Source: Eledone cirrhosa
Lineage: Eukaryota
Assembly (NCBI GenBank): GCA_964016885.1
Contig: OZ024763.1
Coordinates: forward strand, 3,224,001-3,288,000
DNA: 64,000 nucleotides
Reading direction: 5' to 3'
The stretch's first letter is position 1; every line of letters starts with the position of its first letter. A model generated the notes under the pieces. It was given only the letters and a program-made list of their open reading frames with translations, was not told the origin of the DNA and did not search any database. Made by a program: the position numbers and the translations under genes. Shown one piece after another: positions 13,555 through 59,228 of this stretch.

Positions 13555-14790
13555 AAATTGTGTACAGTGCTCAGGTGCACTACAACTCATCAAAGGTGCA
13601 TGTATAGTACATAAACTTTTTCTGTCTCTTAGCAATAAGAATTTTAGTAAGACTCCCTGTGTGTATCTCCAAATGTCAAGAAAGTGAACAAAGTCATAAT
13701 ATACCCACAGATACATGCGTGCCTGTGTATGGAGGGATAATATCGGGTGTAGTGTTGGTGAAGCATGGAAGTTTTGAACGATGCAAGTAGTTTGTTCCAT
13801 ACTTGATAGTGTACAGTGCTCAAGTGCACTACAACTCATCAAAGGTGCATGTATAGTACATAGAATAATGTACAAATGTCAGGAAAGTGAACAGTGTATG
13901 ATTCATGATATACACACAGACACACGTGTGTATGGAGGGGGAATATCAGGTGTAGTGTTGGCATATTTCAGGAAGCATGGAAGTTTTGAAGGATGCAGTG
14001 TCCCAACAGCTAACAACTGATGCAGGTAGTTTTGAAGGAGAAATATATTTTACTAGTTTCAGTTACTATTGGATCCCTGAGGTTACGTGATGTTCATTCA
14101 CAGCTGAGCATTGTGTCGGTAGAAGAGAGTGTATATATTAACAGCTCTACCCGACAATCAGACAAACACAGGTACAACATCTGGGGGAAGGTGCCAAACA
14201 TAATCATCAAACTGAAATAAAAAAACACATTAAATGTATAACAATAATAACAAGATATTTATTTATAAACACACACACACATATATATATATATAATAAT
14301 AATAATAATGAAATTATTGTGTACAGTGCTCAGGTGCACTACAACTCATCAAAGGTGCATGTATAGTACATAGAATAATGTACAAATGTCAGGAAAATGA
14401 ACAGTGTATGAGTCATGATATAATAATAATAACAATAATGAAATATTGTGTACAGTGCCCAGGTGCACCACAACTCATAAAAAAAGTGCATGTACAGTAC
14501 ATAGGGCAATGCACAAACATCAGTAAAATGAACAGTGCACGAGTCATGATACACACGTGTGCATGTGTATGGAAGGGGTACATCAGGTGTAGTTTTGGCG
14601 TATTTCGGGAAGCATGAGTGTCTTAAAGAATGCAGTATCTCGGCAGCTAACAATTGACGCAGGCAGTTTGTTCCATGCTTCAGCAACTCTGAGCGTGAAA
14701 AAATGTCTACGAAAGTCATGGGAGCTGTGCTGTTTTCTGATCTTGTAGGCATGTCCACGTGTGATATATCAGAATGGAGGAAGTAAAAAA
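13555..14790 (-). mobile_element. Cluster of CR1-like LINE 3' ends
   Basis: minus strand reads FRRHFFTLRVAEAWNKLPASIVSC, a CR1/L2-type C-terminus; (ATT)n tails; further stubs at about 31545-31620 and 40710-40860. Confidence 0.7.
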
Positions 14791-14931
14791 CCAGTTAGAC
14801 CATTACTCAATACTTCGGGTAGTAGAGCGGGTAATATGTCAAATATATCTATCTATATGAACATTATATATCTCTCTCTCTCTATATATATATATCTATA
14901 TATCTATGTATAAACATATATATATATATAT

Positions 14932-16002
14932 GTCCCAAATGCAAAGTATGGGTGCATAAAAGATGTAGTGGGATCACAGGTAAGCTAACTAAGAACATAG
15001 ATTTTATATAGGGCCGGTGCTCTGGTGCAATAAGTAGCAGCAAGTGCCCACAGAATACTAGCTCATTCCATTGCACAGATGGTTCTATAGAAATAGTGGA
15101 CACCTTCCGTTACCTGGGGGAGGGTGCTCTGAAAGTACAGTAGCTAGAGTCAGAACTGGATGGAAAAAGTTCAGAGAGCTTATACCACTATTAGCCGCTA
15201 AAGGGTTCTCTCTAAAAATGAAAGGCAGGCTGTATGATGCCTGCATACGAACAGCAATGTTACATGGCAGTGAGACCTGGGCATTGTGTGCAGAGGAACG
15301 AAGCTTGCATGCTCTGCTGGTTGTGTAATAGTAATATACGTGAACGGCAAAGCATAAACGAACTAAGGGAAAAATTAGAAATAAGAGGGATCAGATGTTG
15401 TTTACTCGAGAGAAGACTACGTTGGTATGGTCACGTGATGCGCATGAAAGACGACAGCTGTATAAAAATAGACAGTAGCCATGGAGTAGGCAGACCCAGA
15501 AAAACCTGGGACGACTTGATAAATTCCGACCTCACACACTTACACCTCTCCAAGACAATGTCACTGGACCGAGATCTTTGGTGCTACACAGTAATACAGA
15601 AGACCCGCCTTAACTAAGTACAAAGTGAAACCTACTACAGTCAGTAGGCACCTCTAACAAAATACACCCCCGTTCCACTACCCCCACCCCATCCACACCA
15701 CCCCTTTCAATGTAAAGTTATGTTGGCACCACAACATCCAGACCGAAACAAATGAGGTCGTGTAGGTGTCACGACAAAAAAACATACAGTCCACGCTGTA
15801 ATGTGACCGTGTAGGTAACACGGTAAAAACCTCCCAGTCCACACTGTAAACGTGGTTGGTGTTAGGAAGGGCATCCAGCCGTAGAAAACCCGCCAGACAG
15901 TCCTATGCAAGCAAGACAACCAATCTTGCCTCAAGTGGGAAAATTCCCGTCCAAACCCATGCAAGCGTGGAAGATGACGTTAAACGATGATGATGATGAT
16001 GA
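14932..16002 (+). mobile_element. Decayed 3' fragment of a related RTE subfamily
   Basis: frameshifted GWKKFREL.PLL/MLHGSETWA/RRLRWYGHVMRM; (GAT)n tail; related pieces at about 52335-52845 (-) and 58662-59070 (+). Confidence 0.88.
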
Positions 16003-16502
16003 TATATATATATGTATGTATATATCTATGTATAAACATATATATATAAACACATATATATCTTTTTTATAATTTCACATATGTATCTATTCACTTTCCC
16101 TTATAAACTTCTAAAATTTAACAGCCTAAAACAACACAGACATTCTATACCAGGCCGTCATGGCCAGCATATTTGACCATCTTGACCAGTGAGTGGCAGC
16201 AAACGATGCTAATTTCTTGGTCACCTATCCACAGGAGTTTAACCAAGAACAATTTAGCAAGATAAAATCTACAGACTTATTTCTTCGAACAAAGTCTGTG
16301 GCGAACTAAAATGAGGCATCAGGTATCTAACAATTCAGCAGCATTTGGATGTGAGAAGAAATGTCTCAGAAACTTCGAATTCGAGAGACAAGAATGAACA
16401 TAATTGATCGTTCCTCGAGCAGATCGGCAGTGAAACATGTAATATGTCAATAAATATAGATATGATGCAATACTGATTTTTTTTTGTTCCCAAATTACTA
16501 TT

Positions 16503-16535
<33 letters not shown>

Positions 16536-16887
16536 ATATATATATATATAAATAAGGATACTTAGTACCTGTGGTAATATCGATCTCCTTTTTATATACA
16601 TAGAAATATATATATAAACTAGAAATTGATTGACATATAAATCTTTAAAATAAACACATGAAACAATCACACATAGTTATGTAGGTAACTAATTAAAGTT
16701 TAACTATAGCTTCAAATATTACCTTATTCTACAGTGGATATGGCGCATGTCTCGGACATGACTCCCTTTATTTTATTTTATTAAATTAATTTTAGATATA
16801 TATATATACATTTCTACATATCAAAGCTAGACTCTAAACATTGAATACATTCAATACTTTTGCTGTCATTATTGATGGCGCTGGTCC

Positions 16888-19800
16888 TGCAATAAGATTG
16901 CGGGTGTGCAGAATCAGATTGATTTTACAGTCGAAGGAAAATAATTCTGTAAACATACCCCTCCAACCCCTGCACTAGCACCTCTCTCTCTCACCTCACC
17001 TCACCTCTTAGTTCTCTCTCCTTGAATGAAATTGCGGGTGTGCAGAATCAGATGGATTTTACATTCAAAGGGAAATAATTCTGTAAACATACCCCTCCTA
17101 CCACAACACTATCTCCTTTCTGTCTCTCTCACCAAATAATAAATACTCTCACCTCACCTCTTCTCCGTTAGCGGAGAAAGTAAATATATAAACATACAGA
17201 ACGACACCAAGTCCAAACTTGGGCGCTCTAACAGGTAAACATTTCGAACAAAATAAATAAATTATAAAACCCGACAATAAAACATTAATGTATTCGCCAT
17301 AATTACATTCACAAATTTATAATAAAACATTGATAATGAAAAATAACGAAGTAAAGGTAAGACTAAAACCTAAACTTCGTGAAATTCCGGTAAAAGTATT
17401 CGTGTTGTCTTCGCTGACGATAGTTACATGTGTGTGTCTGTATAAATATACCTGTAAACATATGTATATATTTATGTATGTATGTATATAAATTATTGTC
17501 TTATTAACAAAAACATTTTTCTAATATCGTGTTTAATATTTCATATTGTGTCGTCTGGTTTTCTTACATTTAATCACAACATAACCCCCATTCGTTTGCT
17601 CACACGACCTCTCCTTTCTCTCTCTTTTTGCCGGCCACTTCTCTGTCTATCTTTCTTTCCCCCTTCTTCCTCTGTCGCTGTTTCCATCCTATAGTCACTT
17701 TCTCTCTTTCTCTTTCTTTTTGATGCCCCCTCTCTCTTACTCTGCACTTTCTACTTCCCTCTCTCTGTGTCATTACATGACACCCTCTTACCACTACACA
17801 AGCTTCTCTCTCTCTCACCTCACCTAACCACTTCGTTCGCTCTCCTCGAATAAATTTGCGGGTGTGCAGAATCAGATGAATTTTACATTCAAAGGGAAAT
17901 AATTCTGTAAACATACCCCTCCTACCACAACACTATCTCCTTTCTGTCTCTCTCACCAAATAATAAATACTCTCACCTCACCTCTTCTCCGTTAGCGGAG
18001 AAAGTAAATATGTAAACATACAGAACGACACCAAGTCCAAACTTGGGCGCTCTACCAGGTAAACATATTTCGAAGAAAAAAAAAAAATTAATAAAACCCG
18101 ACAATAAAACATTAATGTATTCGCCATAATTACATTCACAAATTTATAATAAAACATTGATAATGAAAAAACGAAGTAAAGGTAAGATTAAAACCTAAAC
18201 TTCGTGAAATTCCGGTAAAAGTATTCGTGTTGTCTTAGCTGACGATAGTTACATGTGTGTATAAATATACCTGTAAACATATGTATATATTTATGCATGT
18301 ATGTATATAAATTGTCTTATTTACAAAAATATTTTTCTAATATCGTGCTTAATATTTCATATAGTGTCGTCTGGTTTTCTTCCATTTAATCACAACATAA
18401 CCCCCATTCGTTTGCTCACACGACCTCTCCTTTCTCTCTCTTTTTGCCGGCCACTTCTCTGTCTCTCTTTCTTTCCCCCTTCTTTCTCTATAGTCACTTT
18501 CTCTCTTTCTCTTTCTTTTTGACGCCCCCTCTCTCTTACTCTGCACTTTCTACTTCCCTCTCTCTCTCAGGCTCCTCTGTATTTCTCTCCCTCACCCTCT
18601 CTCTGTGTCATTACATGACACCCGCTTGCCACTGCACAAGCTTCTCTCTCTCTCACCTCACCTAACCTCCTCGTTCTCTCTCCTCGAATAAAATTGCGGG
18701 TGTGCAGAATCAGATGGATTTTACATTCAAAGGGAAATAATTTTGTAAACATACCCCTCCTACCACAACACTATCTCCTTTCTGTCTCTCTCACCAAATA
18801 ATATATACTCTCACCTCACCTCTTCTCCGTTAGCGGAGAAAGTAAATATGTAAACATACAGAAAGACACCAAGTCCAAACTTGGGCGCTCTACCAGGTAA
18901 ACATATTTCTAAGAAAATAAATAAATTAATAAAACCCGACAATAAAACATTAATGTATTCGTCATAATTAGATGAAAAAACGAAGTAAAGGTAAGATTAA
19001 AACCTAAACTTCGTGAAATTCCGGTAAAAGTATTCGTGTTGTCTTAGCTGACGATAGTTACATGTGTGTGTGTCTGTATAAATATACCTGTAAATATATG
19101 TATATATTTATGTATGTATATAAATTATTGTCTTATTTACAAAAACATTTTTCTAATATCGTGTTTAATATTTCATGTTGTGTCGTCTGGTTTTCTTACA
19201 TTTAATCACGACATAACTCTTGACTCACTCCCATTCGTTTGCTTACTGACTCACACTATCTCTCTCTATCCCTCTCACAGCCTTTTCTCTCTTTGATTCC
19301 CCTTCTCTCTTACTCTGCACTATCTACTTCCCTCACCTCCTCTCTCTGTGTCATTACACCTGACACCCTCCTACCACTACACTAGCGCCTCTCCTCGAAT
19401 AAAATTGCGGGTGTGCAGAATCAGATGAATTTTACATTCAAAGGGAAATAATTTTGTAAACATACCCCTCCTACCACAACACTATCACCTTTCTGTCTCT
19501 CTCACCAAATAATATATACTCTCACCTCACCTCCGTTAGCGGAGGAAGTAAATATCTAAACATACAGACCGACACCAAGTCCAAACTTGGGCGCTCTAAC
19601 AGGTAAACATTTCGAACAAAATAAATAAATTATAAAACCCGACCATAAAATAAAACATTAATGTATTCGCCATAATTACATTCACAAATTTATAATAAAA
19701 CATTGATAATGAAAAATAACGAAGTAAAGGTAAGACTAAAACCTAAACTTCGTGAAATTCCGGTAAAAGTATTCGTGTTGTCTTCGCTGAAGATAGTTAC

Positions 19801-22800
19801 ATGTGTGTGTCTGTATAAATATACCTGTAAACATATGTATATATTTATGTATGTATGCATGTATGTATATAAATTGTCTTATTTACAAAAATATTTTTCT
19901 AATATCGTGTTTAATATTTCATATAGTGTCGTCTGGTTTTCTTCCATTTAATCACAACATAACCCCCATTCGTTTGCTCACACGACCTCTCCTTTCTCTC
20001 TCTTTTTGCCGGCCACTTCTCTGTCTCTCTTTCTCTTTATTTTTGATGCCCCCTCTCTCTTACTCTGCACTTTCTACTTTCCTCTCTCCCTGTCATTACA
20101 TGACACCCTCTTGCCACTACACAAGCTTCTCTCTCTCTCACCTCACCTAACCACTTCGTTCGCTCTCCTCGAATAAATTTGCGGGTGTGCAGAATCAGAT
20201 GAATTTTACATTCAAAGGGAAATAATTCTGTAAACATACCCCTCCTACCACAACACTATCTCCTTTCTGTCTCTCTCACCAAATAATAAATACTCTCACC
20301 TCACCTTTTCTCCGTTAGCGGAGGAAGTAAATATGTAAACATACAGAACGACACCAAGTCCAAACTTGGGCGCTCTACCAGGTAAACATATTTCGAAGAA
20401 AAAAAAAAAAATTAATAAAACCCGACAATAAAACATTAATGTATTCGCCATAATTAGATTCACAAATTTATAATAAAACATTGATAATGAAAAAACGAAG
20501 TAAAGGTAAGATTAAAACCTAAACTTCGTGAAATTCCGGTAAAAGTATTCGTGTTGTCTTAGCTGACGAGTTACATGTGTGTGTGTCTGTATAAATATAC
20601 CTGTAAACATATGTATATATTTATGTATGTATATAAATTATTGTCTTATTTACAAAAACATTTTTCTAATATTGTGTTTAATATTTCATATTGTGTCGTC
20701 TGGTTTTCTTCCATTTAATCACGACATAACTCTTGACTCACTCCCATTCGTTTGCTTACTGACTCACACTATCTCTCTCTACCCCTCTCACAGCCTTTTC
20801 TCTCTTTCTCTTTGATTCCCCTTCTCTCTTACTCTGCACTATCTACTTCCCTCACCTCCTCTCTCTGTGTCATTACATCTGACACCCTCCTACCACTACA
20901 CTAGCTCCTCTCTCTCTCACCTCACCTAACCTCTTCGTTCTCTCTCCTCGAATAAAATTGCGGGTGTGCAGAATCAGATGAATTTTACATTCAAAGGGAA
21001 ATAATTCTGTAAACATACCCCTCCTACCACAACACTATCTCCTTTCTGTCTCTCTCACCAAATAATAAATACTCTCACCTCACCTTTTCTCCGTTAGCGG
21101 AGGAAGTAAATATGTAAACATACAGAACGACACCAAGTCCAACCTTGGGCGCTCTACCAGGTAAAGATATCTCGAACAAAATAAATAAATTAATAAAACG
21201 CGACAATAAAACATTAATGTATTCGCCATAATTACATTCACAAATTTATAATAAAACATTGATAATAAAAAATAACGAAGTAAAGGTAAGGTTAAAACCT
21301 AAACTTCGTGAAATTCCGGTAAAAGTATTCGTGTTGTCTTAGCTGCGATAGTTACATGTGTGTATAAATATACCTGTAAACATATGTATATATTTATGCA
21401 TGTATGTATATAAATTGTCTTATTTACAAAAACATTTTTCTAATATTGTGTTTAATATTTCATATAGTGTCGTCTGGTTTTCTTCCATTTAATCACGACA
21501 TAACTCTCAACTCACTCTCCTTCATTTACTTACTGTCTCACACTCTCTCTCTACAGCCTTCCCACTCAACTTCCCCTTTCTCTGACTCCCTCCTACCACT
21601 ACACTAGCTCCTCTCTCTCTCACACCAACGAAACCCTCATCTAACCTCTTCGTTCTCTCTCCTCGAATAAAATTGCGGGTGTGCAGAATCAGATGAATTT
21701 TACATTCAAAGGGAAATAATTTTGTAAACATACCCCTCCTACCACAACACTATCTCCTTTCTGTCTCTCTCACCAAATAATATATACTCTCACCTCACCT
21801 TTTCTCCGTTAGCGGAGGAAGTAAATATGTAAACATACAGAACGACACCAAGTCCAAACTTGGGCGCTCTAACAGGTAAACATTTCGAACAAAATAAATA
21901 AATTATAAAACCCGACAATAAAACATTAATGTATTCGCCATAATTACATTCACAAATTTATAATAAAACATTGATAATGAAAAATAACGAAGTAAAGGTA
22001 AGGTTAAAACCTAAACTTCGTGAAATTCCGGTAAAAGTATTCGTGTTGTCTTAGCTGGCGCTAGTTACATGTGTGTGTGTCTGTATAAATATACCCATAA
22101 ACATATGTATATATTTATGTATGTATGCATGTATATATATATAAATTACTGTCTTATTTACAAAAACATTTTTCTAATATAGTGTCGTCTGGCTTTCTTC
22201 CATTTAATCACGACATAACTCTCAACTCACTCCCATTCGTTTGCTTACTGACTCACACTATCTCTCTCTACCCCTCTCACACAACTTCTTTCTCTTTGAT
22301 TCCCCTTCTCTCTTACTCTGCACTATCTACTTCTCTCATCTCCTCTCTCTGTGTCATTACATCTTACACCCTCCTACCACTACACTAGCGCCTCTCTCTC
22401 TCTCACCTCACCTAACCTCTTCGTTCTCTCTCCTCGAATAAATTTGCGGGTGTGCAGAATCAGATGGATTTTACATTCAAAGGGAAATAATTCTGTAAAC
22501 ATATCCCTCCTACCACAACACTATCTACTTTCTGTCTCTCTCACCAAATAATATATACTCTCACCTCACCTCTTCTCCGTTAGCGGGAGGCAGTAAACAT
22601 GTAAACATACAGAACGACACCAAGTCCAATCTTGGGCGCTCTACCAGGTAAACATAATTCGAAGAAAATAAATAAATTAATAAAACGCGACAATAAAACA
22701 TTAATGTATTCGCCATAATTACATTTACAAATTTATAATGAAAAATAACGAAGTAAAGGTAAGATTAAAACCTAAACTTCGTGAAATTCCGGTAAAAGTA

Positions 22801-24160
22801 TTCGTGTTGTCTTAGCTGACGATAGTTACGTGTGTGTGTGTCTGTATAAATATACCTGTAAACATATGTATATATTTATGTATGTATGCATGTATATAAA
22901 TTATTGTCTTATTTACAAAAACATTTTTCTAATATTGTGTTTAATATTTCATATTGTGTTGTCTGGCCTTCTTACATTTAATCACGACATAACTCTCAAC
23001 TCACTGTCCTTCGTTTACTTACTGTCTCACACTCTCTCTCTACCCTTCCCCTTTCTCGCTCTTTTTGCCGGGAACTTCTCTTATAGCCTTTTCTCTGACT
23101 CCCTCCTACCACTACACTAGCGCCTCTCTCTCACCTCATCTCACCTCTTCGTTCTCTCTCCTCGAATAAAATTGCGGGTGTGCAGAATCAGATGAATTTT
23201 ACATTCAAAGGGAAATAATTCTGTAAACATATCCCTCCTACCACAACACTATCTCCTTTCTGTCTCTCTCACCAAATAATATATACTCTCACCTCTTCTC
23301 CGTTAGCGGAGGCAGTAAATATGCAAACATACAGAACGTGTGTGTGTGTCTGTATAAATATACCTGTAAACTTATGTATATATTTATGCATGTATATAAA
23401 TTATTGTCTTATTTACAAAAACATTTTTCTAATATCGTGTTTAATATTTCATATTGTGTTGTCTGGCTTTCTTCCATTTAATCACGACATAACTCTCAAC
23501 TCACTCCCATTCGTTTACTTACTGTCTCACACTATCTCTCTCTACCCCTCTCACACAATCTCTCCTTTCTCTCTCTTTTTGCCGGCCACTTCTCTCACAG
23601 CCTTTTCCCTTTCTCTTACTCTGCACTATCTACTTCCCTCTCTCCCTCACCTCCTCTCTCTGTGTCATTACATCTGACACCCTCCTACCACTACACTAGC
23701 GCCTCTCTCTCACCTCACCTAACCTCTTAGTTCTCTCTCCTCGAATAAAATTGCGGGTGTGCAGAATCAGATGGATTTTACATTCAAAGGGAAATAATTC
23801 TGTAAACAAACCCCTCCTACCACAACACTATCTCCTTTCTGTCTCTCTCACCAAATAATATATACTCTCACCTCACCTCTTCTCCGTTAGCGGAGGAAGT
23901 AAATATGTAAACATACAGGACGACACCAAGTCCAACCTTGGGCGCTCTACCAGGTAAAGATATCTCGAACAGAATAAATAAATTAATAAAACCCGACAAT
24001 AAAACATTAATGTATTCGCCATAATTACATTCACAAATTTATAATAAAACATTGATAATGAAAAATAACGAAGTAAAGGTAAGGTTAAAACCTAAACTTC
24101 GTGAAATTCCGGTAAAAGTATTCGTGTTGTCTTAGCAGACGATTGTTACATGTGTGTGCG
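16888..24160 (+). repeat. Tandem array, ten ~0.6-0.84-kb units plus partial units (left arm of a fold-back)
   Basis: landmark ccgttagcgg cassette starts at 17172, 17996, 18834, 19540, 20319, 21098, 21813, 22584, 23307, 23891. Confidence 0.95.
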
Positions 24161-24529
24161 TATGTATATATATATATATATAAATACACGTATTCACATA
24201 TATAAATATATATATAGTATATATATATATATATATATACACATTTACAAATAGATATATATGTATATACATAAATATATACATATTTACAAATAGATAT
24301 ATATGTATATATATATATATATAAAGATAAATATATGCATATATATATAAATATATACATATTTATATATATAAATATATATATATATATATAAATATAT
24401 ATAAAGATAAATATATGCATATAATATATATATATACATATTTATATATATAAATATGTATATATTTATATATATATGCATATATTTATCTTTATATATA
24501 TACATATATATATCTATTTGTAAATATGT

Positions 24530-24562
<33 letters not shown>

Positions 24563-24678
24563 AATTGGCAACATGACCCTCCCAAAGTATAACAATATAT
24601 AAATATATAAATATGTATATATATATTTATATATATATATATATGTATATATATACATATTTATATATATATATATAT

Positions 24679-26256
24679 TGTCCCGGGTATGACATTAAAC
24701 TACATCCAGTGGCAGGGCTCCAGTTCGGTAGTTCAGGAGCTGTGGGGAATGTGGCTGGGAAGATGAGCCAGCTCATCACCACATCGGCAGTGAGGAACAT
24801 AACCAATGCTGCAGTGGGAGGAATGGGTTTTGTTTTCAGCACAAAAACCAGTCTATTGGTGAGGGAAATAATGCCTGTCTCCCCGCGAGTGTTGAGGGTG
24901 ACCTTCAATGGAAACCCAAGACTGACAGTCATCTCAGCCTATAGTCCAACCGAGGGAGACAGTGATGTGAGTGCGGAAGAGTTCCATGAGGAGGTGTGTA
25001 GAGCTATCAACACCACACAAGCACACAACATCCTGCTTGTTTTAGGGGACTTCAATGCACATCTGAGTAAGGAGGGCAGTGAAGATCCTTGCTGGTACTT
25101 CCATAACAACAACCGAAATGGAAGACTACTGAGAGACACCCTGCTGGAGGCGAACTTGATAGCGACCAACCTAAGGTTTAGCAAGAATCCGGGGAAGATG
25201 TGGACCTACATTCCAGATATGCACCTGTCCAAGTCCCAGATTGATTTCATTCTGGTGAGGAAAAAGTGGCGGAATAGTGTCCTGAACACAGAACCATACA
25301 ACTATTTCAGTACACTGGGTAGTGACCACCGGCTTGTTATGAGTGAGGTCCGGGTGAGCTTAAGAAAGAGCAAGGCTCAGACCCGGAGAGCAATCTATGA
25401 CTGGGGAGCTTTCAAGGAAGATGATAAGCTACAGGAGAGGTTCACAGTGGATGTGAGGAACAGGTTCAGTGCTCTGTGTGGAGGGACTGAGGAGAGTGTG
25501 ACGAGGAGGTACGGGCACTTCACCAATGCAGTGGCAGGAGCAAGTGAGACCTTGGTGCCGAGGAGAAAGAACAAAAGGAAGCACGTCATATAGTGAAGGA
25601 GGCAGAGGATTTGATGCAGGAGGTTGAGAATGAATGAGATGAAAACAAACTATCTGGTAGAGAATGTTGAGAAGCCAGAGAGGATCACTAATGTAGGCAG
25701 GAAGCCGCTAGAATTGGTTGAGGACTTCCTGTATTTGGGAGCAAAGATTGGGAATATGGAAGATGATGTGGTTGAGAGGAAGAGCAAAACCTGATCGGCG
25801 TGGAAATCGGACCTTCGTAAAGACCTGAAAATCCGCCTCTTCATTGCTGTAGTGGAGTCTGTGCTGCTGTACGGGTCTGAGACTTGGACACTGACCAAGA
25901 AACTCACTCAGATGGTGGATGGGTGCTACACAAGAATGCTGAGGATGGCTCTGAACATTAATCAGTATACACTGAGGATGGAAAACTCAGAGCTGTATGG
26001 GAGCCTCCCAAAAGTGACACAGAGGAGACTGAGGTTAGCTGGACATGCTCACCGACATCCAGAGTTGACACTGCACTCAGTGCTCCTGTGGGAGCTCCTA
26101 CATGGACACACTGGAAGAGGAAGACCAAGGTTAACGTATGTTAATGCCCTAAGGACAGACACTGGTCTGTTGGAGATGCAGGACATGGCAGCGATGAGGG
26201 ACAGAGACCGCTGGAGAGAACTCGTCGATGGATCTCGGGAATTTTACCCGCCCTAG
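24679..26256 (+). mobile_element. Internally deleted RTE-like LINE (APE part joined to post-RT C-terminus)
   Basis: VISAYSPT, LGDFNAH, SDH endonuclease motifs, then F.YLG and LLYGSETW; RT core missing. Confidence 0.88.
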
Positions 26257-26371
26257 AAAATATATATATATATTTGTATATACATATATTTATATTTAGG
26301 AATATGTATATTTATATATATATACATATATATCTATTTATATATGTAAATCTGTATATACTTATATATAT

Positions 26372-29155
26372 TTCGGGATTAAATGGAAGGAGGCCAGACA
26401 CAATATGAAATATTAAACACGATATTAGAAAAATATTTTGTAAAGACAATAATTTATATACATACATGCATACATAAATATATACATATGTTTACAGGTA
26501 TATATACACACACACACACGTAACAATCGTCAGCTAAGACAACACGAATACTTTTACCGGAATTTCACGAAGTTTAGGTTTTAACCTTACCTTTACTTCG
26601 TTATTTTTCATTATAAATTTATGAATGTAATTATGGCGAATACATTAATGTTTTATTGTCGGGTTTTATTAATTTATTTATTTTCTTCGAAATATGTTTA
26701 CCTGGTAGAGCGCCCAAGTTTGGACTTGGTGTCGTTCTGTATGTTTACATATTTACTTTCTCCGCTAACGGAGAAGAGGTGAGGTGAGAGTATTTATTAT
26801 TTGGTGAGAGAGACAGAAAGGAGATAGTGTTGTGGTAGGAGGGATATGTTTACAGAATTATTTCCCTTTGAATGTAAAATTCATCTGATTCTGCACACCC
26901 GCAATTTTATTCGAGGAGGAGAGAGAACGAAGAGGTTAGGCGAGGTGAGAGAGAGAGGAGCTTGTGTAGTGGTAAGAGGGTGTCAGATGTAATGACACAG
27001 AGAGAGGAGGTGAGGGAGAGAGGGAATTAGATAGTGCTGAGTAAGAGAGAAGGGGAATGAAAGAGAAAGAGAGGAAAGGCTGTAGAGAGAGAGTGTGAGA
27101 CAGTAAATAAACGAATGGGAGTGAGTTGAGAGTTATGTCGTGATTAAATGGAAGAAAGCCAGACGACACAATATGAAATATTAAACACGATATTAGAAAA
27201 ATGTTTTTGTAAATAAGACAATAATTTATATACATACATAAATATATACATATGTTTACAGGTATATATACACACACACACACACATGTAACAATCGTCA
27301 GCTAAGACAACACGAATACTTTTACCGGAATTTCACGAAGTTTAGGTTTTAACCTTACCTTTACTTCGTTATTTTTCATTATAAATTTGTGAATGTAATG
27401 ATGGCGAATACATTAATGTTTTATTGTCGGGTTTTATTAATTTATTTATTTTCTTCGAAATATGTTTACCTGGTAGAGCGCCCAAGTTTGGACTTGGTGT
27501 CGTTCTGTATGTTTACATATTTACTTTCTCCGCTAACGGAGAAGAGGTGAGGTGAGAGTATTTATTATTTGGTGAGAGAGACAGAAAGGAGATAGTGTTG
27601 TGGTAGGAGGGGTATGTTTACAGAATTATTTCCCTTTGAATGTAAAATTCATCTGATTCTGCACACCCGCAATTTTATTCGAGGAGGAGAGAGAACGAAG
27701 AGGTTAGGCGAGGTGAGAGAGAGAGGAGCTTGTGTAGTGGTAAGAGGGTGTCAGATGTAATGACACAGAGAGAGGAGGTGAGGGAGAGAGGGAATTAGAT
27801 AGTGCTGAGTAAGAGAGAAGGGGAATGAAAGAGAAAGAGAGGAAAGGCTGTAGAGAGAGAGTGTGAGACAGTAAATAAACGAATGGGAGTGAGTTGAGAG
27901 TTATGTCGTGATTAAATGGAAGAAAGCCAGACAACACAATATGAAATATTAAACACGATATTAGAAAAATGTTTTTGTAAATAAGACAATAATTTATATA
28001 CATACATAAATATATACATATGTTTACAGGTATATTTATACAGACACACACACATGTAACTATCGTCAGCTAAGACAACACGTATACTTTTACCGGAATT
28101 TCACGAAGTTTAGGTTTTAATCTTACCTTTACTTCGTTATTTTTCATTATAAATTTGTGAATCTAATTATGGCGAATACATTAATGTTTTATTGTCGGGT
28201 TTTATTAATTTATTTATTTTCTTCGAGATATCTTTACCTGGTAGAGCGCCCAAGTTTGGACTTGGTGTCGTTCTGTATGTTTACATATTTACTTTCTCCG
28301 CTAAAGGAGAAGAGGGGAGGTGAGAGTATATATTATTTGGTGAGAGAGACAGAAAGGAGATAGTGTTGTGGTAGGAGGGCTATGTTTACAGAATTATGTC
28401 CCTTTGAATGTAGAATTCATCTGATTCTGCACACCCGCAAATTTATTCGAGGAGGAGAGAGAAAGAGGAGCTTGTGTAGTGGTAAGAGGGTGTCAGATGT
28501 AATGACACAGAGAGAGGAGGTGAGGGAATTAGATAGTGCTGAGTAAGAGAGAAGGGGAATGAAAGAGAAAGAGAGGAAAGGCTGTGAGAGGGGTAGAGAG
28601 AGATAGTGTGAGTCAGTAAGCAAACGAATGGGAGTGAGTTGAGAGTTATGTCGTGATTAAATGGAAGAAAACCAGACGACACAATATGAAATATTAAACA
28701 CGATATTAGAAAAATGTTTTTGTAAATAAGACAATTTATATACATACATAAATATATACATATGTTTATAGGTATATTTATACAGACACACACATGTAAC
28801 TATCGTCAGCTAAGACAACACGAATACTTTTACCGGAATTTCACGAAGTTTATAAATTTGTGAATGTAATTATGGCGAATACATTAATGTTTTATTGTCG
28901 CGTTTTATTAATTAATTTATTTTCTTCGAGATATCTTTACCTGGTAGAGCGCCCAAGTTTAGACTTGGTGTCGTTCTGTATGTTTACATATTTACTTTCT
29001 CCGCTAAAGGAGAAGAGGGGAGGTGAGAGTATATATTATTTTGTGAGAGAGACAGAAAGGAGATAGTGTTGTGGTAGGAGGGGTATGTTTACAGAATTAT
29101 GTCCCTTGGATTGTAAAATCCATCTGATTTTGCACACCCGCAATTTTATTCGAAG
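26372..29155 (-). repeat. Inverted tandem array, four units of the same repeat (right arm)
   Basis: reverse-complement cassettes at 26702-26764, 27470-27532, 28238-28300, 28941-29003. Confidence 0.95.
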
Positions 29156-29247
29156 AGATAAATATACATATTTATATATGTAAAGAGATATATATGTATA
29201 TATATATAAATAGATACATATTTATATATATAAATAGATAGAAAATG

Positions 29248-29278
<31 letters not shown>

Positions 29279-30027
29279 TTATATATGTAAATATATACAT
29301 AAAAATATATATATTTTTATATATAAATAAAAATATATATATATATATATATAGGAACAAGTATGACCCCGACGGCAGAGCTCAAGCCGTTTCGACGGCT
29401 ATTTCTGGACTGAATTCTAGTCCAGAATTAGCCGTCGAAACGGCTTGAGCTCTGCCGTCGGGGCCATACTTGTTCCTATTACCCACTCTACTACCCAAAG
29501 CATTGAGTACTTTGGTGCGTTATGGTCCATCTGATTCCTTACCACATTTCCTTCGTTATATATATATATATATGGCTTAGTGGTTAGAGCAATGGCTTTA
29601 CTATCAAAAGGTTGTGAGTTCAATTCTCAGACCAGGTGATGTGTTGTTTCCTTTATTTCACATTGCTCCAGTTTACTCAGCTGTAGAAATGAGATGATAG
29701 GACTGTGGTCCTTATTATTCCACTGCAAAGTGGTCATGGAGGTTCCATGGCAAAAAAGCACCCAGCCCACACTGTAAATGAGGTTGGTGTTAGGAAGGGC
29801 ATCCAGCTGTAGAAATCAAGCCAGAATCAGTTCTCACCCTATCCTTGCAAGCAGGGAAAAGTGGACGTAAAATGAAATGAAATGATATATATATATACAT
29901 ATATATATACATCACTCTCAAAAGTGTGAACCTAATAAACTACCATTTGTACTGCCTCTCTGCTTTTTGTTCCTGTCAAATATTTAACTATATACACACA
30001 CACACATTATATACATATACATATAAA

Positions 30028-30144
30028 CTACCAAATAAAACTTACTTCTGAGAATTCATTTGTTGATTCATTGTAAATGTAGCTTTCTTCACTTTCAGCT
30101 GGGATATCGAAGAAATTGTCAGTTACTAAAGTCCGAAGAGAGAT
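30028..30144 (-). CDS. RSKR: RSKR-like kinase, last or penultimate exon (ISLRTLVTDNFFDIPAESEESYIYNESTNEFSE[VSFIW*])
   Basis: strong acceptor; a gtaagt donor follows 30046 but read-through gives a stop at 30028-30030, so the true end is ambiguous. Confidence 0.7.
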   Translation of the reverse strand: MSLRTLVTDNFFDIPAESEESYIYNESTNEFSEVSFIW

Positions 30145-45481: not shown

Positions 45482-48400
45482 TCATCATCATCATCATCAC
45501 CGTTTTACGTCCGCTCTTCCACGCTAGCATGGGTTAGACGGGTTGTCCTGTTGTGGGCAGTGTCTGGTCGGCTGACCATGCCTTGCTCATACAGGAACTG
45601 ATCTGGCTTGATTTCTACAGCTGGATGCCCTTCCTAACACCAACCTCATTTACAGTGAGTGCTGGGTGCTTTTTCGTGGCGCCTACACGTCCACTTTACA
45701 GTGTGGGCTGGGTGCTTTTTTGCCGTGGCACCTCCACGACCACCTTGCGGTGGGGGGGGGGGGGGGCATATTGTTTATATGCTTCAGCATGTACCCATGG
45801 GAGGTCGGGTACCCTGTATTACTGCGTGACGCCAGAAGTCACGGTCGTGTGTCATTGACTTTGAGAGGTGTAGTTGGGTAAGGTCGGCTTTTATCACCTC
45901 ATCCCAAGTCATCTTGGGTCTCCCCACTCCGCGGTTTCCATCAACTTCTAGTGCTCTGCACCTTTTTATGCAGCTGTCATCCTTCATACGCATCACATGT
46001 CCATACCAGCGTAACCGCCTCTCCTGCACGCAGCATTTGATTCCTCTTATGCTCAGTCTCTCTCTCAATTCATTTATGCTTTGTCGTTCACGTATATTAC
46101 TGTTACACATCCATCGGAGCATGCAGGCTTCGTTTCTCTCTAATCTACGTAAGTCTTCCACCTTCAGCGCCCAGGTCTCACTACCATGCAACATCGCTGT
46201 TCGGATACACGCATCATACAGTCTGCCTTTCATTCTGAGGGAGAAGCCTTTTGCAGCTAGCAGTGGTAGTAGTTCCCTAAACTTCTTCCATCCCGTTCTT
46301 ACCCTAGTTATTGTACTTTCTGAGCACCCACCTCCGTTGCTAATTCGGTCACCTAGGTAGCAGAAGCTGTCTACTGTTTCTACAGGGCCCTCCCAGAGAT
46401 TGGTGGTACTTGTTTCCTGTGGCTGTTTGCTTGCTGTTTCAGCACAGCTGCTGCATGTGAATCCTACATTCTTAATTAAGCTTCCTGAGATCCCGCTACA
46501 TCTCTTGTGTACCCATTGTTTGCATTTGGGGCAAAGAATGGAGTTCCTACCTACACCTTTCCTACATACTGAGCAAGGCCATTTCCCTGAGGGGATCTGG
46601 GTTCTGTTTTCTCGTCTACTTATAAGGACCTTAGTCTTTGTCATGTTGACTTTGAGGCCCTTTCTCTCTAGTCCCTGCTTCCAGGTTTGGAATTTATTCT
46701 CTAGTTCTACCATAGATTCAGCTATGAGTGCGAGGTCATCAGCATACAGGAGTTCCCATGGGCATCCGGTCTTAAACTCCTCCGTTATTGCCTGCAGGAC
46801 TATGATGAACAGGAGAGGGCTAAGAACAGAGCCCTGGTGGACCCCAACCTGTACGCTAAATTCCTCGCTATACTCATTGCCAATCCTAACTTTGCTGACT
46901 GCTCCCCTATACATGGCTTGTACCGCTTTCACAAGCCATTCATCTACTCCTAGTTTTCTAAGAGCCCACCAGATTACTGCACGTGGAACTCTGTCAAAGG
47001 CTTTCTCAAGGTCGACAAATGCCAAGTAGAGTGGCTTACTTTTAGCTAGGTACTTTTCCTGTAATTGCCTCACAAGGAAGAGCGCATCAGTGGTGCCTTT
47101 CCCTGGAACAAACCCAAATTGCATCTCGTCTATATTCACCCGGTCCCTAATCAGCTGTGCTATAACTCTTTCTGTTACTTTCATGACCTGGTCCATCAAC
47201 TTTATACCTCTATAGTTTCCTCTATCTAGTGCATCGCCTTTACCTTTGTAGCAGTTGACAATGATGCTACTGCACCAATCTTTTGGTATGGCCCCCTCTA
47301 GTATTACCTGGTTAACGATACGTGTGGTTATAGTGTGACCTACAGACCCAGATGCCTTCAGCATCTCGGCAGCTATACCCGATGGACCGGTTGCCTTCCC
47401 TATCTTCATATCTCTGATTGCCTTACTTACTACGCTGCCGCTGACTTGTACTGCTGGTCCCTCTATAGGGTCTACGTGGGGTAGGGTCTCTTCTTCCCAT
47501 GCATTCTCCTCATTTAGTAATCTATCATAATGACTCTTCCATGCATCTTTCTTCTCAGCACTTGTGAGGGCAAGCTCACCTTTATCATTCCGGATACACT
47601 TCTCTCCAATGACATCACAACTATCTCTGACACACTGCCTCGCAATCTTGAATACCTCCTGTTTCTGGTCCTCACGTTGTAAAACATGCTTGAATTTTCT
47701 ATCCTCTGCTTCCCTCCTAGCTAAGTATACTTGTCGCCTAGCTTCCCTCTTGGTCTCTATGTAATGTACCCTGCTCCCCCCGTTCTTCCATTCTTTCCAT
47801 GCCTGTCTCTTGGCCTTGACTGCTTCATCTACCTTATTGTTCCACCACCAAGTCACTCTCCTCCTGCTTGAGGTCTTACTCCAGCCACAAACCTCATCCG
47901 TCGCCTCTAGTAAGTTATTTTTTAGGAACTCCCAGTTCTCTTCTACGTTAAATGTCTCTATCTGTTCTTCTTTACTGTCGTAGGCGTTGAGTAAAATATC
48001 TTTAAATCTGTTACTGGTTGAGGGGACTTTCAGCTTCCAGATCTTTCTTCTCCAGGTTGGCCTCTGTTTCAGGGCTCGTCTAGTTCTGACCGTGAGGTCG
48101 CTGACAACTAAGCTATGTTGGGATGTACATTCCTCACTAGGGAAGGCTTTTGTGTTTACGACCGTCCATCTGTCACGTCCTCTGATGAGGATAAAATCTA
48201 ACTGACTAGAGTGCTCCCCTGATCTATAGGTGATCAGGTGGTTGTCGGGTTTTTTAAAGTTTGTGTTACATATCGACATGTCATTGGCGTCGCAGAATTC
48301 TAGAAGTCTGAATCCTTCCTCATTCCTTGTGCCAACTCCATGGCCTCCATGTACTCTATTGAAGCCGTCGCAGTGTTTACCTACGTGTCCGTTAAAATCT

Positions 48401-48582
48401 CCTGCAATGATTAGGAAGTCCTTGTCGTCTGTTAGAGCAGTAGTGTGTATTAGGGACTCGTAAAACCTATCCTTAAGTTCGTCTGGCAGCCCCGATTGGG
48501 GTGCGTAAGCTGATATTATTGTGGTAATTGTCTTATTCAGGACTAGTCTGAGTTTAATTTCTGTTATTTCTGTTTACCTTTT
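45482..48582 (-). mobile_element. RTE-clade non-LTR retrotransposon, 5'-truncated, young, in RSKR intron 1
   Basis: stop-free frame from about 48558 to 45784 with APE (SAYAPQ, GDFNGHVG), RT (QGSVLSPLLF, YADD) and a Cys/His finger; 3' UTR ending in a (GAT)n tail. Confidence 0.95.
45784..48558 (-). CDS. RTE APE-RT polyprotein (N-terminally truncated, about 924 codons)
   Basis: 831-aa ORF in the track extends upstream in frame without stops. Confidence 0.9.
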   Translation of the reverse strand: MKLRLVLNKTITTIISAYAPQSGLPDELKDRFYESLIHTTALTDDKDFLIIAGDFNGHVGKHCDGFNRVHGGHGVGTRNEEGFRLLEFCDANDMSICNTNFKKPDNHLITYRSGEHSSQLDFILIRGRDRWTVVNTKAFPSEECTSQHSLVVSDLTVRTRRALKQRPTWRRKIWKLKVPSTSNRFKDILLNAYDSKEEQIETFNVEENWEFLKNNLLEATDEVCGWSKTSSRRRVTWWWNNKVDEAVKAKRQAWKEWKNGGSRVHYIETKREARRQVYLARREAEDRKFKHVLQREDQKQEVFKIARQCVRDSCDVIGEKCIRNDKGELALTSAEKKDAWKSHYDRLLNEENAWEEETLPHVDPIEGPAVQVSGSVVSKAIRDMKIGKATGPSGIAAEMLKASGSVGHTITTRIVNQVILEGAIPKDWCSSIIVNCYKGKGDALDRGNYRGIKLMDQVMKVTERVIAQLIRDRVNIDEMQFGFVPGKGTTDALFLVRQLQEKYLAKSKPLYLAFVDLEKAFDRVPRAVIWWALRKLGVDEWLVKAVQAMYRGAVSKVRIGNEYSEEFSVQVGVHQGSVLSPLLFIIVLQAITEEFKTGCPWELLYADDLALIAESMVELENKFQTWKQGLERKGLKVNMTKTKVLISRRENRTQIPSGKWPCSVCRKGVGRNSILCPKCKQWVHKRCSGISGSLIKNVGFTCSSCAETASKQPQETSTTNLWEGPVETVDSFCYLGDRISNGGGCSESTITRVRTGWKKFRELLPLLAAKGFSLRMKGRLYDACIRTAMLHGSETWALKVEDLRRLERNEACMLRWMCNSNIRERQSINELRERLSIRGIKCCVQERRLRWYGHVMRMKDDSCIKRCRALEVDGNRGVGRPKMTWDEVIKADLTQLHLSKSMTHDRDFWRHAVIQGTRPPMGTC

Positions 48583-48883: not shown

Positions 48884-49905
48884 ATAATAATAAATGTGAA
48901 GACTAAAATCCGAAGAGGGCTTGATAAGGATAATATATATCAAATATATAAAACCATAGATCAAATATTTATTAAAATAACAGATTAAAGTTTAAGCAAA
49001 GAATTTCTGCTTTCACCCTTAACGGGATCTTCTGAAACTTCTGAATCTTCTGAGTTTCAGAAGATCCCGTTAAGGGTGAAAGCAGCGATTCTTTGCTTAA
49101 ACTTTAATCTGTTATTTTAATAAATATTTATGTGCGTGTGTAGTGCAGGTAAAGAAATAAAACAAACTGAAGACAGCTTAATAATAAATAATTAAGACAG
49201 GTGTTAATTGAAAAAGTTTGCTCCACCACCACCACCACCACCATCATCATTGTTGTTTGCCTTAGTTGAATACCTGAGAGAGAGAGAGAGAGAGGAGGGT
49301 AGATAGAGAGGGGAGAGATAGAGAGAGTTTAACGTTTTATCTTCGTAGACAATAAGTGGAGGAATTCCTTTCATATTATAACTTAAGTTGATATAGTTTT
49401 GGAGCGATGGGGGAGGTGGGGGATAGTTTATTGCAACATGAAACCAACACCACCACCACCACCACCACCACCACCACCACCCTACTACACCACCTCCAAT
49501 CAAAACTACCCCCAAAACCACCATCCCACCACTAACAACCACCACCAACACTATCATTACAATCGAATCCCAGTGCATTACTGGTACTTTATTTTATCAA
49601 CCCCGTAAGGATGAAAGGCAAACCTAATCTCGGCGGGATTTGAACTCACAATAATAATAATAATAATGGTTTCTTATATAGGCACAAGGCCAGCAATTTT
49701 GGGGGAGGGGGCAGTCGATTAAACGACCCAGTGTATTACTGGTACTTTATTTTAATAATAATACCAATAATTATTTAAGGATCTGATATAAACAATATCA
49801 TTCTATATATTCAGGTAAAAATGTATGTACACACTTCAACAGCATTTTAATAAATATTGCCTGTACAGGTAATCAAGGTGTGTTATATATTTTGGGGGAA
49901 ATACC

Positions 49906-49936: not shown

Positions 49937-50018
49937 CGTTATTCCGGGTTGAATCGGAAGTAACCACAGTAAGTAAGGTACTCAATACATTGCAGAGTAT
50001 AAAAGTTTTGATATAGAT

Positions 50019-50071
50019 GAGATTCTACAGGACTAGAACTGTTTCATTCTTTAGAAATCATCAGGAATCTC
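50019..50071 (-). ncRNA. Type I hammerhead ribozyme motif, family B
   Basis: gagattc-CTGATGA-tttctaaagaat-GAAA-cag ttctagtc ctg-TA-gaatctc; perfect 7-bp stem I. Confidence 0.75.
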
Positions 50072-50122
50072 AGGTTCCTGATGATTTCTAAAGAATGAAA
50101 CAGTTCTAGTCCTGTAGAATCT
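50072..50122 (+). ncRNA. Type I hammerhead ribozyme motif, family B, inverted partner
   Basis: aggttc-CTGATGA-tttctaaagaat-GAAA-cagttctagtcctg-TA-gaatct. Confidence 0.72.
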
Positions 50123-50124
50123 CA

Positions 50125-50181
<57 letters not shown>

Positions 50182-50763
50182 GGGCCTCGTTTGTCTTAAA
50201 AATATGAGGGGGACAAACCAACATTTGTTGATTCTTAAAGGAACATGGTGCCTTCCCCGGAACCAATCACATACGTCACATTTTACGCTAATTAAATTTT
50301 ATATATTCAAATGAAGTTCAGATATAAAAAAAATAAGCTTAAAAGAATTTATTATATCAAATAAACAAAAAAACAAAAGATGGTTTGTTCCCCGTTTCTG
50401 AAAAAGTGGGGGTTGGGGGACTTGTCCTCTGCTACCACCCCCTGAAACAAGGCTCTTCTATATATATATATATATAAATGAAGTAATTCCGTCGGAAAGG
50501 TGGTCCAGGAAAAAAGGAGTGCTCTATGTAGCGATAATTATCTTATGTTGTTTATATATATATATAAAACGAAGGAAGTGTGGTAAGGAACCAGGTGGAC
50601 CATAACGCACCAGAGTACTCAATACTTAGGGTAGTAGAGTAGGTAATAGGAAAATGTTCAAGACCCCCGACGGCAGAGCTCGAGCCGTTTCGACAGCTAT
50701 TTCTGAGTCCAGAAATAGCCGTCGAAACGGCTCGAGCTCTGCCGTCGGGGTCTTAAACATTTT

Positions 50764-50802
<39 letters not shown>

Positions 50803-56196: not shown

Positions 56197-56471
56197 TTAA
56201 GGCATCTGTAAGGACTTGGCCAGCAGGGCAGCGAGGGCTTGGTCAACATCTCCATTAGATCGTTGCAGTTCATCGAGAACTTGTTGTCTTTCAAAGCCGT
56301 ACGCCATCAGTCGTAGCATGGCTTCCTCAGGGACTTGTTGAGTGGCGGGAGAAGAAGGAGGAGGAGGAATGTGAGGAGCCGGAGGAGGAGGTGATGAAAC
56401 TGTATCTGAAGGGTTCGAAGTTGAGGTGGAGCAGGTGCCAAGGTTCCGACTAGAAACCAAAACTTGTTTTG
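56197..56471 (-). CDS. DDI2: DDI1/2-like protease terminal exon with UBA domain (…[45 protein letters not shown])
   Basis: phase-1 acceptor matches the upstream donor; xGF loop and NGD...A...L UBA pattern; TAA stop. Confidence 0.88.
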
Positions 56472-56557
56472 CTGAAATTAAAATGAAAAGAAAAAAGTTT
56501 TCAGAAAAAATTCTTAAAATAATAAACAATCTTTTAATGAAACTAAACCCATACTCC

Positions 56558-56752
56558 AGCCACACTCAGTCCGGTCAAGCCACACTCAGTCCGGCCATGC
56601 CACACTCAGTCCGGTCAAGCCACACTCAGTCCGGTCAAGCCACACTCAGTCCGGTCAAGCCACACTCAGTCCGGTCAAGCCACACTCGGTCCGGCCATGC
56701 CACACTCGGTCCGGCCTGCCACACTCGGTCCGGCCATGCCACACTCAGTCCA
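56558..56752. repeat. 20-bp GC-rich minisatellite filling most of the last DDI intron
   Basis: gccacactcagtccggtcaa about x10. Confidence 0.92.
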
Positions 56753-56795
56753 GTAAAATTACTCTCACTCCAGTGCAAAGGGAGATAATCCTCAC

Positions 56796-56985
56796 ATGAT
56801 GCCTCCTCAGCAGACTTAGCTAAGGCCTCAGCTAACTGTTGGTCCTCACTCTCCATAGAAGCTGAAGATGGTCTCTGTAAGAGGTTCAGTCGAGCGTGTT
56901 CCGGAAGTTCTGATTCACTGAGAAAAGGTGTCTCTGTTCCTGTCGTACCAATAACTAATACATTTCGTTTTAAATCTATTGAACA
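56796..56985 (-). CDS. DDI2: DDI1/2-like protease exon, RVP end and UIM ([16 protein letters not shown]...ELPEHARL...[18 protein letters not shown])
   Basis: 190 nt; CSIDL..N.L.IGTTG motif then a UIM-like helix. Confidence 0.92.
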
Positions 56986-57094
56986 CTGGAAATAGAAAAT
57001 ATATGTAAATATGGGTTATATCGAATAATAATCTTATATATATATTGATTGGAGAACTGCGAGACTGTGTCCAGTTTATTATTTTGCATATATA

Positions 57095-57290
57095 GGGGCA
57101 GTGGATTGGCAGTATCGGTAGAGTGTCGGACGCCATGCTTTGACGCATAGAGTTACGGTCCTTGCCATTCTGAGTTCAAATCCCGCCGAGGTTAACTTTG
57201 CCTTTCATCCTTACGGGGTCGATAAAATAAAGTGCCAGTAATGCACTGGGTAATTGATGGCTTTGTGCCAAAAGTAGAAACAATTATTTT
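57095..57290 (+). mobile_element. tRNA-derived SINE (MetaSINE-like central domain)
   Basis: A-box-like tggcagtatcggt, B box gagttcaaatcc, gcctttcatccttacggggtcgataaa core; copies at about 9330-9465, 9600-9780, 37195-37390, 49560-49755, 62545-62985. Confidence 0.8.
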
Positions 57291-57467
57291 GCATATATAT
57301 ACACATATTAAATTAAAAATAAAAAGTTGAATGACATATATATCTAAAATAAACACATCAAACAATTACAGGGGATAATTTGTAAAGAGTGTAAACACAC
57401 CTAGTTACGGAGGTAACATATTAAAAATTAACAAGAACCTTGAATTCAGATACCTTGCAATAATGAT

Positions 57468-57497
<30 letters not shown>

Positions 57498-57498
<1 letters not shown>

Positions 57499-58100: not shown

Positions 58101-58166
58101 TAAATATATATATATATATATATATACATATATACACATTATATACATATCATATTATATACACAC

Positions 58167-58270
58167 CTGATGTCGTCTTAACATATCCAGTCCTAATAAC
58201 ATATCCACAGGTTGATCTTCCAATATTGAGAAGGAAGACTGAAGAAAATCAGGACCAATTTGTATTTGAC
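58167..58270 (-). CDS. DDI2: DDI1/2-like protease exon ([34 protein letters not shown])
   Basis: 104 nt; MLLGLDML motif. Confidence 0.96.
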
Positions 58271-58629: not shown

Positions 58630-58661
<32 letters not shown>

Positions 58662-59099: not shown

Positions 59100-59228
59100 C
59101 TAAATGTACTCTTCCAATAATCTTCTGTGTACCAACACCTTTCGCTATCCCTGCCCATCGATTGTCTACAAGTCGCATAATGTTGCAACGTTCTGCACAC
59201 GACTGACTCATGATGGTCATCTGAGCAC
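59100..59228 (-). CDS. DDI2: DDI1/2-like protease exon ([42 protein letters not shown])
   Basis: 129 nt; highly conserved RVP segment. Confidence 0.97.

What the first reader, a model, noticed from the sequence alone, without database searches (positions are those of the whole stretch)
16888..29155. 12-kb fold-back macro-array: ten direct units facing four inverted units around a LINE-containing spacer
Seen: a complex ~0.6-0.84-kb unit is tandemly repeated and then inverted, with (TA)n and an RT-deleted RTE at the axis. It lies immediately downstream of the RSKR 3' end. Inference: read-through transcription would yield up to ~2.8 kb of near-perfect dsRNA, an hpRNA/endo-siRNA-type locus or an ADAR hyper-editing substrate (coleoids are known for extensive A-to-I editing). 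The unit is not a transposon I recognise.
Basis: partly seen in the sequence, partly recalled or inferred. Interest (0 to 1): 0.75.

Follow-up and report, generated by a model that had tools for sequence, protein, structure and literature searches.

The report
Fold-back Helitron array inside kinase intron
This is a stranded piece of a rolling-circle (Helitron) transposon whose internal 0.7-kb repeat expanded and flipped back on itself inside the last intron of a kinase gene, so the unspliced RNA is predicted to fold into a long imperfect hairpin, likely by accident, and nearly all long arrays of this repeat family flip the same way.

Summary
The array is real: ten direct units plus a partial one face four inverted units across a 2.2-kb spacer of TA-rich DNA and an RT-less LINE. 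It lies inside RSKR's last intron (14212-30045), not downstream of the gene: a spliced contig and two homologues place the last exon at 14211. The arms are not near-perfect: 89% with gaps, longest helices 80-142 bp.

The unit is the internal tandem repeat of a dispersed non-autonomous Helitron family. Other copies have A|TC and CTAG|T ends and no target duplication; this copy has lost both ends. Units cluster by locus, so the array grew in place.

Fold-backs are a family habit: 10 of 11 arrays of six or more units are inverted, and 10 of 10 net-inverted loci (8 of 8 counted strictly) share one polarity. One of these was predicted before it was fetched.

Editing and small RNAs are untested. Verdict: Helitron-derived satellite-like array and probable incidental intronic dsRNA; the polarity rule is the unexplained part.

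The parts
14003..14211 (-). RSKR last exon (coding 14211-14158, then 3' UTR to at least 14003)
   Evidence: X4 contig positions 1229-1437, 0 mismatches; homologue C-termini; AG acceptor
14212..30045 (-). RSKR last intron, 15,834 bp, GT-AG, holding the whole array
16812..16884 (+). About 70-bp remnant of the family 'leader' (the part towards the Helitron 3' end); the rest of the leader and the CTAG end are missing here
   Evidence: BLAST of L031/L039 to the window
16885..24175 (+). Left arm: a 134-bp partial unit plus ten units of 579-838 bp (unit 9 internally deleted, unit 10 cut at its TG/TA tract)
24161..24680 (.). TA-rich block (90% AT) where intact copies carry the 5' part of the Helitron
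24681..26257 (+). LINE fragment: endonuclease domain and C-terminal part, RT core deleted at about 25588; antisense to RSKR.
26258..26368 (.). TA-rich block
26369..29158 (-). Right arm: four inverted units (703-768 bp spacing) with arm-private markers
29159..29353 (.). TA-rich block at the outer end of the right arm
30046..30144 (-). RSKR penultimate coding exon, ending in a GT donor

Best explanation
The structure is the internal tandem repeat of a non-autonomous Helitron family, lying without its ends in the last intron of RSKR, which likely expanded in place and was likely inverted once by a replication template switch, so that the unspliced RNA is predicted to form a ~2.6-kb imperfect duplex that is probably edited incidentally and discarded with the intron. 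Shown: intron position; family membership of the unit; Helitron-type ends on other copies; grouping of units by locus; non-mirror arms; recurrence and polarity of inversions. Inferred: the family arose when a short Helitron read past its own 3' end and captured SINE, AT-rich and LINE DNA; the unit was duplicated inside the element; the switch happened while the pyrimidine-rich (Helitron-antisense) strand was being made; each arm kept duplicating or converting afterwards; the LINE entered the TA-rich axis. The cause of the polarity is open. My order: second-strand synthesis on a single-stranded Helitron intermediate, then polar stalling on the GA-rich template (recalled mechanism), then RNA-templated twin priming.
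For: Family: 490 and 283 first-look candidates for unit queries, 40 scored each, on many contigs. 3' end: in 12 of the 30 leader loci homology stops at one nucleotide; 7 of 12 end exactly CTAG, 12 of 12 are followed by T. 5' end: 5 of 13 copies displayed start A|TCTTRTAT; the other 8 are cut by insertions, unrecognisable or from sister families. Two copies with both ends show no flanking duplication. The 5' ~300 bp resemble a short element with a TC start (12 of 18 loci) and a CTAG-type end (12 of 18; exact CTAG in 8). Helitron Rep is abundant in the genome (3,704 candidates, 150 scored). These are the defining features and the read-through model in PMC4778049 (passages). Local growth: units 95% alike within the window, mean 86% and max 91.5% to other loci; the tree groups units by locus. 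Not a mirror: a 3-bp insertion in 3 of 4 right units and 0 left units, and one private substitution. Recurrence: 10 of 11 arrays of 6 or more units are inverted against 4 of 14 with 2-5 units (Fisher p 0.004), among 37 loci fetched; 10 of 10 net-inverted loci are +/- (p 0.002). The missing arm of the C13 2.05-Mb array was predicted and found (28 +, 13 -). Clean fold-back junctions (perfect stems 21-57 bp) at 5 of 19 switch points against 5-9 bp in 9 controls.
Against: This copy has neither Helitron end, so membership rests on other loci. The 3' hairpin is weak (-1.0 to -4.6 kcal/mol in 5 copies; -0.8 to -1.6 in 3 short copies). No RepHel partner is linked: one unrelated-looking Rep hit in all fetched flanks. 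14 of 19 switch points are not clean hairpins, and the window's own axis is TA-LINE-TA. The four right units do not form a supported clade (FastTree support 0.016). Two of the ten +/- loci are doubtful (C24 15.27 Mb is followed by a forward trailer; C7 88.73 Mb is a distant 71% fragment), leaving 8 of 8 (p 0.008); C20 25.35 Mb scored -+- because of a 150-bp fragment. Loci are top hits, not a census. No read spans the axis here or at any other locus. Editing is not shown.
Confidence: 0.8

Rival explanations
1. The two arms were pasted in one step by twin-primed reverse transcription of a Helitron-sense RNA into a TA run, as earlier scan notes propose for hammerhead repeats in this genome.
For: Explains the one-way polarity directly. 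In the window TA-rich DNA touches both outer ends. LINE and Penelope-type RTs are available (an RT ORF lies in the window).
Against: Outer ends are not at fixed points. A (TA)n of 12 nt or more lies within 40 nt of only 2 of 12 outer ends checked. No hammerhead by Rfam or by core pattern in 14 units. Arms carry separate higher-order periods (C13 5.02 Mb, about 2.9 against 2.4 kb). At C18 both arms hold leader DNA.
Confidence: 0.1
2. The intronic duplex is used by the host: it shortens or shields the 15.8-kb last intron, or recruits ADAR to RSKR RNA.
For: Both arms are made before the 3' splice site; the duplex is the longest in the gene; X4 has contigs on the intron and array edge at depth 2.7-4.8 against 44.8 for the mRNA.
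Against: The same architecture recurs across the family, so it needs no local function. No conservation at this site was shown. The low-depth X4 contigs may be DNA carry-over.
Confidence: 0.06
3. A dedicated hairpin-RNA or endo-siRNA locus.
For: 1.2-1.6 kb of the duplex lies in uninterrupted helices of 30 bp or more.
Against: Intronic, so nuclear and probably short-lived (inference); transposon-internal DNA; no known RNA family above gathering score; no separate transcription unit seen.
Confidence: 0.04
4. A Foldback-type DNA transposon whose long terminal inverted repeats are built of tandem units.
For: Overall shape: long asymmetric inverted arms around a variable spacer (Foldback anatomy recalled; Tetris cited in PMC12628747, reference list).
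Against: Outer ends differ at every locus and are not inverted copies of one terminus. Intact copies are not inverted and have Helitron-type ends.
Confidence: 0.02
5. Assembly artefact from fold-back chimeric long reads.
For: No read or contig spanning the axis was seen; only the left junction has contig support (X1 16846-17013, X4 16620-17010, 0 mismatches).
Against: Arms differ by 5% plus many indels, carry shared private markers, are not in mirror order and enclose a unique 2.2-kb spacer.
Confidence: 0.03

Closest known systems
Non-autonomous Helitrons with de novo 3' ends from read-through (Helibat/Helraiser; PMC4778049, passages read)
   Same: 5'-TC, CTAG-3', A^T target, no target duplication, captured flanking DNA
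   Different: The captured part holds a 0.3-1 kb unit that expands into arrays of up to 41 copies; the window copy has no ends; the hairpin is weak
Helitron/Helentron-carried satellites of the oyster Crassostrea gigas (PMC8268682, passages; review PMC12628747, passages)
   Same: Central tandem arrays with element boxes on two, one or no sides; single monomers commonest; the review notes arrays 'oriented in different directions'
   Different: Longer complex unit; no one-way polarity of inversions in the passages I read
Macro-dyad satellite arrays of Tribolium freemani (PMC12581902, passages)
   Same: Multi-kilobase arrays of two inverted, asymmetric subarrays with short loops at the switch
   Different: There centromeric, with six conserved junction types shared between chromosomes; here dispersed, intronic in this case, with a different junction at each locus
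Template-switch inverted duplications (ODIRA; PMC10766183, PMC4689423, search listing and start of abstract only)
   Same: Interrupted palindromic junctions with 6-26-nt loops at 5 of 19 switch points
   Different: Gives no reason for one polarity; the window's axis is TA-LINE-TA
Inverted repeat pairs in introns as ADAR substrates (PMC9989829, passages and a section title)
   Same: Nearby inverted young repeats in one transcript form long dsRNA
   Different: About 2.6 kb from one array, with 10:4 alternative registers; editing not shown here

Membership tests
Non-autonomous Helitron (family level) | 5' terminus TC preceded by A | tested here: met
   5 of 13 displayed copies, all that reach the end intact
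Non-autonomous Helitron (family level) | 3' terminus CTRR followed by T | tested here: met
   CTAG in 7 of 12, T follows in 12 of 12
Non-autonomous Helitron (family level) | No target-site duplication, no terminal inverted repeats | tested here: met
   Two copies with both ends (C7, C4), flanks differ; no empty site examined
Non-autonomous Helitron (family level) | Subterminal 3' hairpin | tested here: inconclusive
   -1.0 to -4.6 kcal/mol, inconsistent folds in 5 copies
Non-autonomous Helitron (family level) | Mobilised by a RepHel that shares its ends | tested here: inconclusive
   Rep abundant, no partner linked
Intact Helitron (this window copy) | Both termini present | tested here: not met
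   Only about 70 bp of leader; no 5' trailer, no CTAG end
Foldback/MULE-type transposon | Fixed inverted termini with target duplication | tested here: not met
   Outer ends vary by locus
hpRNA / endo-siRNA locus | Long intramolecular duplex in one transcript | tested here: met
   Predicted from sequence, in RSKR pre-mRNA
hpRNA / endo-siRNA locus | Phased 21-22-nt RNAs from a stable own transcript | not testable with these tools
   No raw RNA or small-RNA run listed
ADAR hyper-edited repeat | Clustered A-to-G on the transcribed strand against matched DNA | tested here: inconclusive
   Only contigs, which drop variants; no T>C among the 5 X4 differences listed in unit 1
Hammerhead retrozyme array | Hammerhead core in each unit; arms ending at fixed points in (TA)n | tested here: not met

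The most novel reading that the evidence does not exclude
This Helitron family follows a strand rule: its internal arrays fold back only while the antisense strand is copied, lose the 5' end, and then both arms expand. It seeds the genome with back-to-back macro-arrays of 8-29 kb that become kilobase-scale dsRNA wherever they fall in an intron. The polarity would be a genomic footprint of the poorly seen second-strand step of Helitron integration, and a route from rolling-circle transposon to dyad satellite.
Probability: 0.3. Interest if true: 0.62.

Novelty: new variant of a known kind. Interest (0 to 1): 0.38.

Why it matters
As a single locus it is transposon debris in an intron, though it is an unusually large predicted dsRNA in an animal group with heavy A-to-I editing. 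The family pattern matters more. Nearly every long array is a fold-back, and always in the same direction, which a strand-neutral template switch does not predict. If that holds in a full census, it offers a natural test of how Helitrons are made double-stranded after insertion and how dyad satellite arrays begin.

Tried and rejected
No RNA holder was listed as such; X4 is read as RNA only because it holds a contig spliced over RSKR exons. Substitution spectra of X4 and X1 were alike and dominated by dispersed repeats: uninformative on editing. Rfam: 31 weak microRNA-type matches, all below gathering score, mostly TG/TA tracts. No tRNA. A 107-codon open frame across unit and leader had no Pfam match. 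A supposed 3' trailer from C9 28.86 Mb was a different short repeat. Leader pairs in inverted orientation (C3, C2) first suggested terminal inverted repeats; the C2 pair are 98%-identical inverted copies of the same element 80 kb apart. Shared 14-mers did not show that the three TA-rich blocks were once one run (controls scored as high). Enrichment of junctions in CT tracts: judged by eye, not evident. The SLD5-like peptide beside the C20 array had no PDB hit. The axis was not tested with reads. Literature searches listed no paper describing this family or a polarity rule for Helitron arrays; only open-access text is searched and Repbase/Dfam could not be checked. PMC13282606 was read in part 1 of 3 only; its supplements, not seen, may list the family.

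Full report
Observation. Self-comparison of 15.5-30.5 kb shows a direct array and an inverted array. Unit starts number 11 on the + strand (one is a 134-bp partial) and 4 on the - strand. The spacer is TA-rich DNA, a LINE fragment with an endonuclease domain but no RT core, and TA-rich DNA again. The arms are imperfect partners: 89% over 2,896 columns. Modelled on the RSKR-sense RNA in 7 registers, they give 2,164-2,579 Watson-Crick pairs, about 100 mismatches, 42-66 blocks and longest helices of 81-142 bp.

Position. The gene is RSKR: a 43-residue exon query returned two proteins, both named ribosomal protein S6 kinase-related, from Octopus sinensis and Argonauta hians, so the genome is probably an octopod (inference). 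They map to 14 coding exons from 51471 to 14158 on the - strand. The exon at 30144-30046 ends in a GT donor, and an acceptor scan pointed to 14211. A single 1437-nt contig of run X4 then matched there at exactly the expected record positions. The array is therefore inside the 15,834-bp last intron. Both arms are transcribed with the gene before the 3' splice site appears, and no other inverted pair in the gene approaches it.

What the unit is. It is dispersed, with hundreds of first-look candidates. Other copies continue on one side into a shared AT-rich leader and a LINE fragment that stops at one nucleotide, reading CTAG|T on the opposite strand in 7 of 12 and followed by T in 12 of 12. On the other side they continue through about 850 bp of shared DNA to A|TC in the 5 of 13 displayed copies that are intact there. 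A 2,207-bp single-unit copy on C7 and a copy on C4 have both ends and no flanking duplication. The 5' part resembles a short element with TC and CTAG ends. These are the Helitron features listed in PMC4778049, which also shows 3' read-through creating new ends (passages). The hairpin test was inconclusive and no RepHel partner was tied to the family, although Rep is abundant. The window copy keeps about 70 bp of leader and neither end.

How the array grew. The 48 units aligned group by locus; window units are 95% alike in all arm comparisons and at most 91.5% alike to other loci. The right arm is no mirror of any four left units: it mixes markers of left units 6, 8, 9 and 10 and has two private ones, though its four units are not a supported clade. 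This fits one local inversion followed by duplication or conversion within the arms, and argues against a chimeric-read artefact. Contigs support only the left junction; the axis is untested by reads.

Family pattern. Among 37 fetched loci, 10 of 11 arrays of six or more units contain inversions against 4 of 14 with two to five. All 10 loci with a net inversion run + then -, that is back-to-back in Helitron sense with the 5' end lost; removing two doubtful ones leaves 8 of 8. An all-minus array that ran off my fetched stretch was predicted to have a plus arm further left and did (28 and 13 units), with a 57-bp perfect stem and 26-nt loop at the axis. Five of 19 switch points are such clean fold-backs; the other 14 are not. 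The three longest arrays have one switch each, which suggests early inversion and later growth (inference). The loci are top search hits, not a census, and were not checked against reads.

Mechanism. Most likely the array is internal Helitron DNA, inverted by a template switch during synthesis of the pyrimidine-rich antisense strand and then expanded; the LINE entered the TA-rich axis, as a Mariner fragment (recognised from recall) sits in the C13 spacer. Why only one polarity survives is not settled. Earlier scan notes on hammerhead repeats suggested twin priming into TA runs; I tested the ends and found them variable and mostly not in TA runs, and found no hammerhead, so this is a minor rival. 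The RNA duplex is a predicted consequence. ADAR editing is plausible from the general link between young nearby inverted repeats and editing (PMC9989829, passages) but was not observed; only contigs were available.

Comparison and novelty. Helitron-borne tandem arrays with lost ends are known from oyster (PMC8268682, PMC12628747; passages), and multi-kilobase dyad arrays from Tribolium (PMC12581902; passages). Six searches of open-access text listed no account of this family or of a polarity rule. Verdict: new variant of a known kind; interest 0.38.

Noticed in passing
window 29354-29480, 50646-50768; also 48963-49129, 50015-50127: Near-perfect palindromes of 113-167 bp beside (TA)n; the first two are one family and sit in RSKR introns. 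They may be the hammerhead-type fold-backs of earlier notes; not checked.
   Followed up: partly
window 45784-48573 (-): 929-codon open LINE frame with endonuclease, RT and PHD domains in an RSKR intron; looks young.
   Followed up: partly
window 56197-62554 (-): Exons of a DDI1/DDI2-like gene (HDD domain E 3e-15, weak UBA) upstream of RSKR.
   Followed up: partly
G000 C13 2.031-2.057 Mb and C13 5.020-5.049 Mb: Larger fold-backs of the same family (41 and 28 units, 25 and 29 kb); the second has higher-order periods that differ between arms.
   Followed up: yes
G000 C18 37.004-37.016 Mb: Three tandem copies of the 3' part of the element (units, leader, end), the reverse of the multiple-5'-end arrays described for plants in PMC12628747.
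   Followed up: no
G000 C20 and C27: Many near-identical Helitron Rep matches with a 362-codon frame spaced about 100-200 kb apart on one strand, suggesting very large tandem duplications.
   Followed up: no
L024 6028-6120: A probable first exon resembling SLD5/GINS4 (recalled; no PDB hit) starts about 250 bp beyond the end of the C20 fold-back.
   Followed up: partly
All 11 arrays of six or more units lie on contigs under 57 Mb, while several single-unit copies lie on the largest contigs.
   Followed up: no
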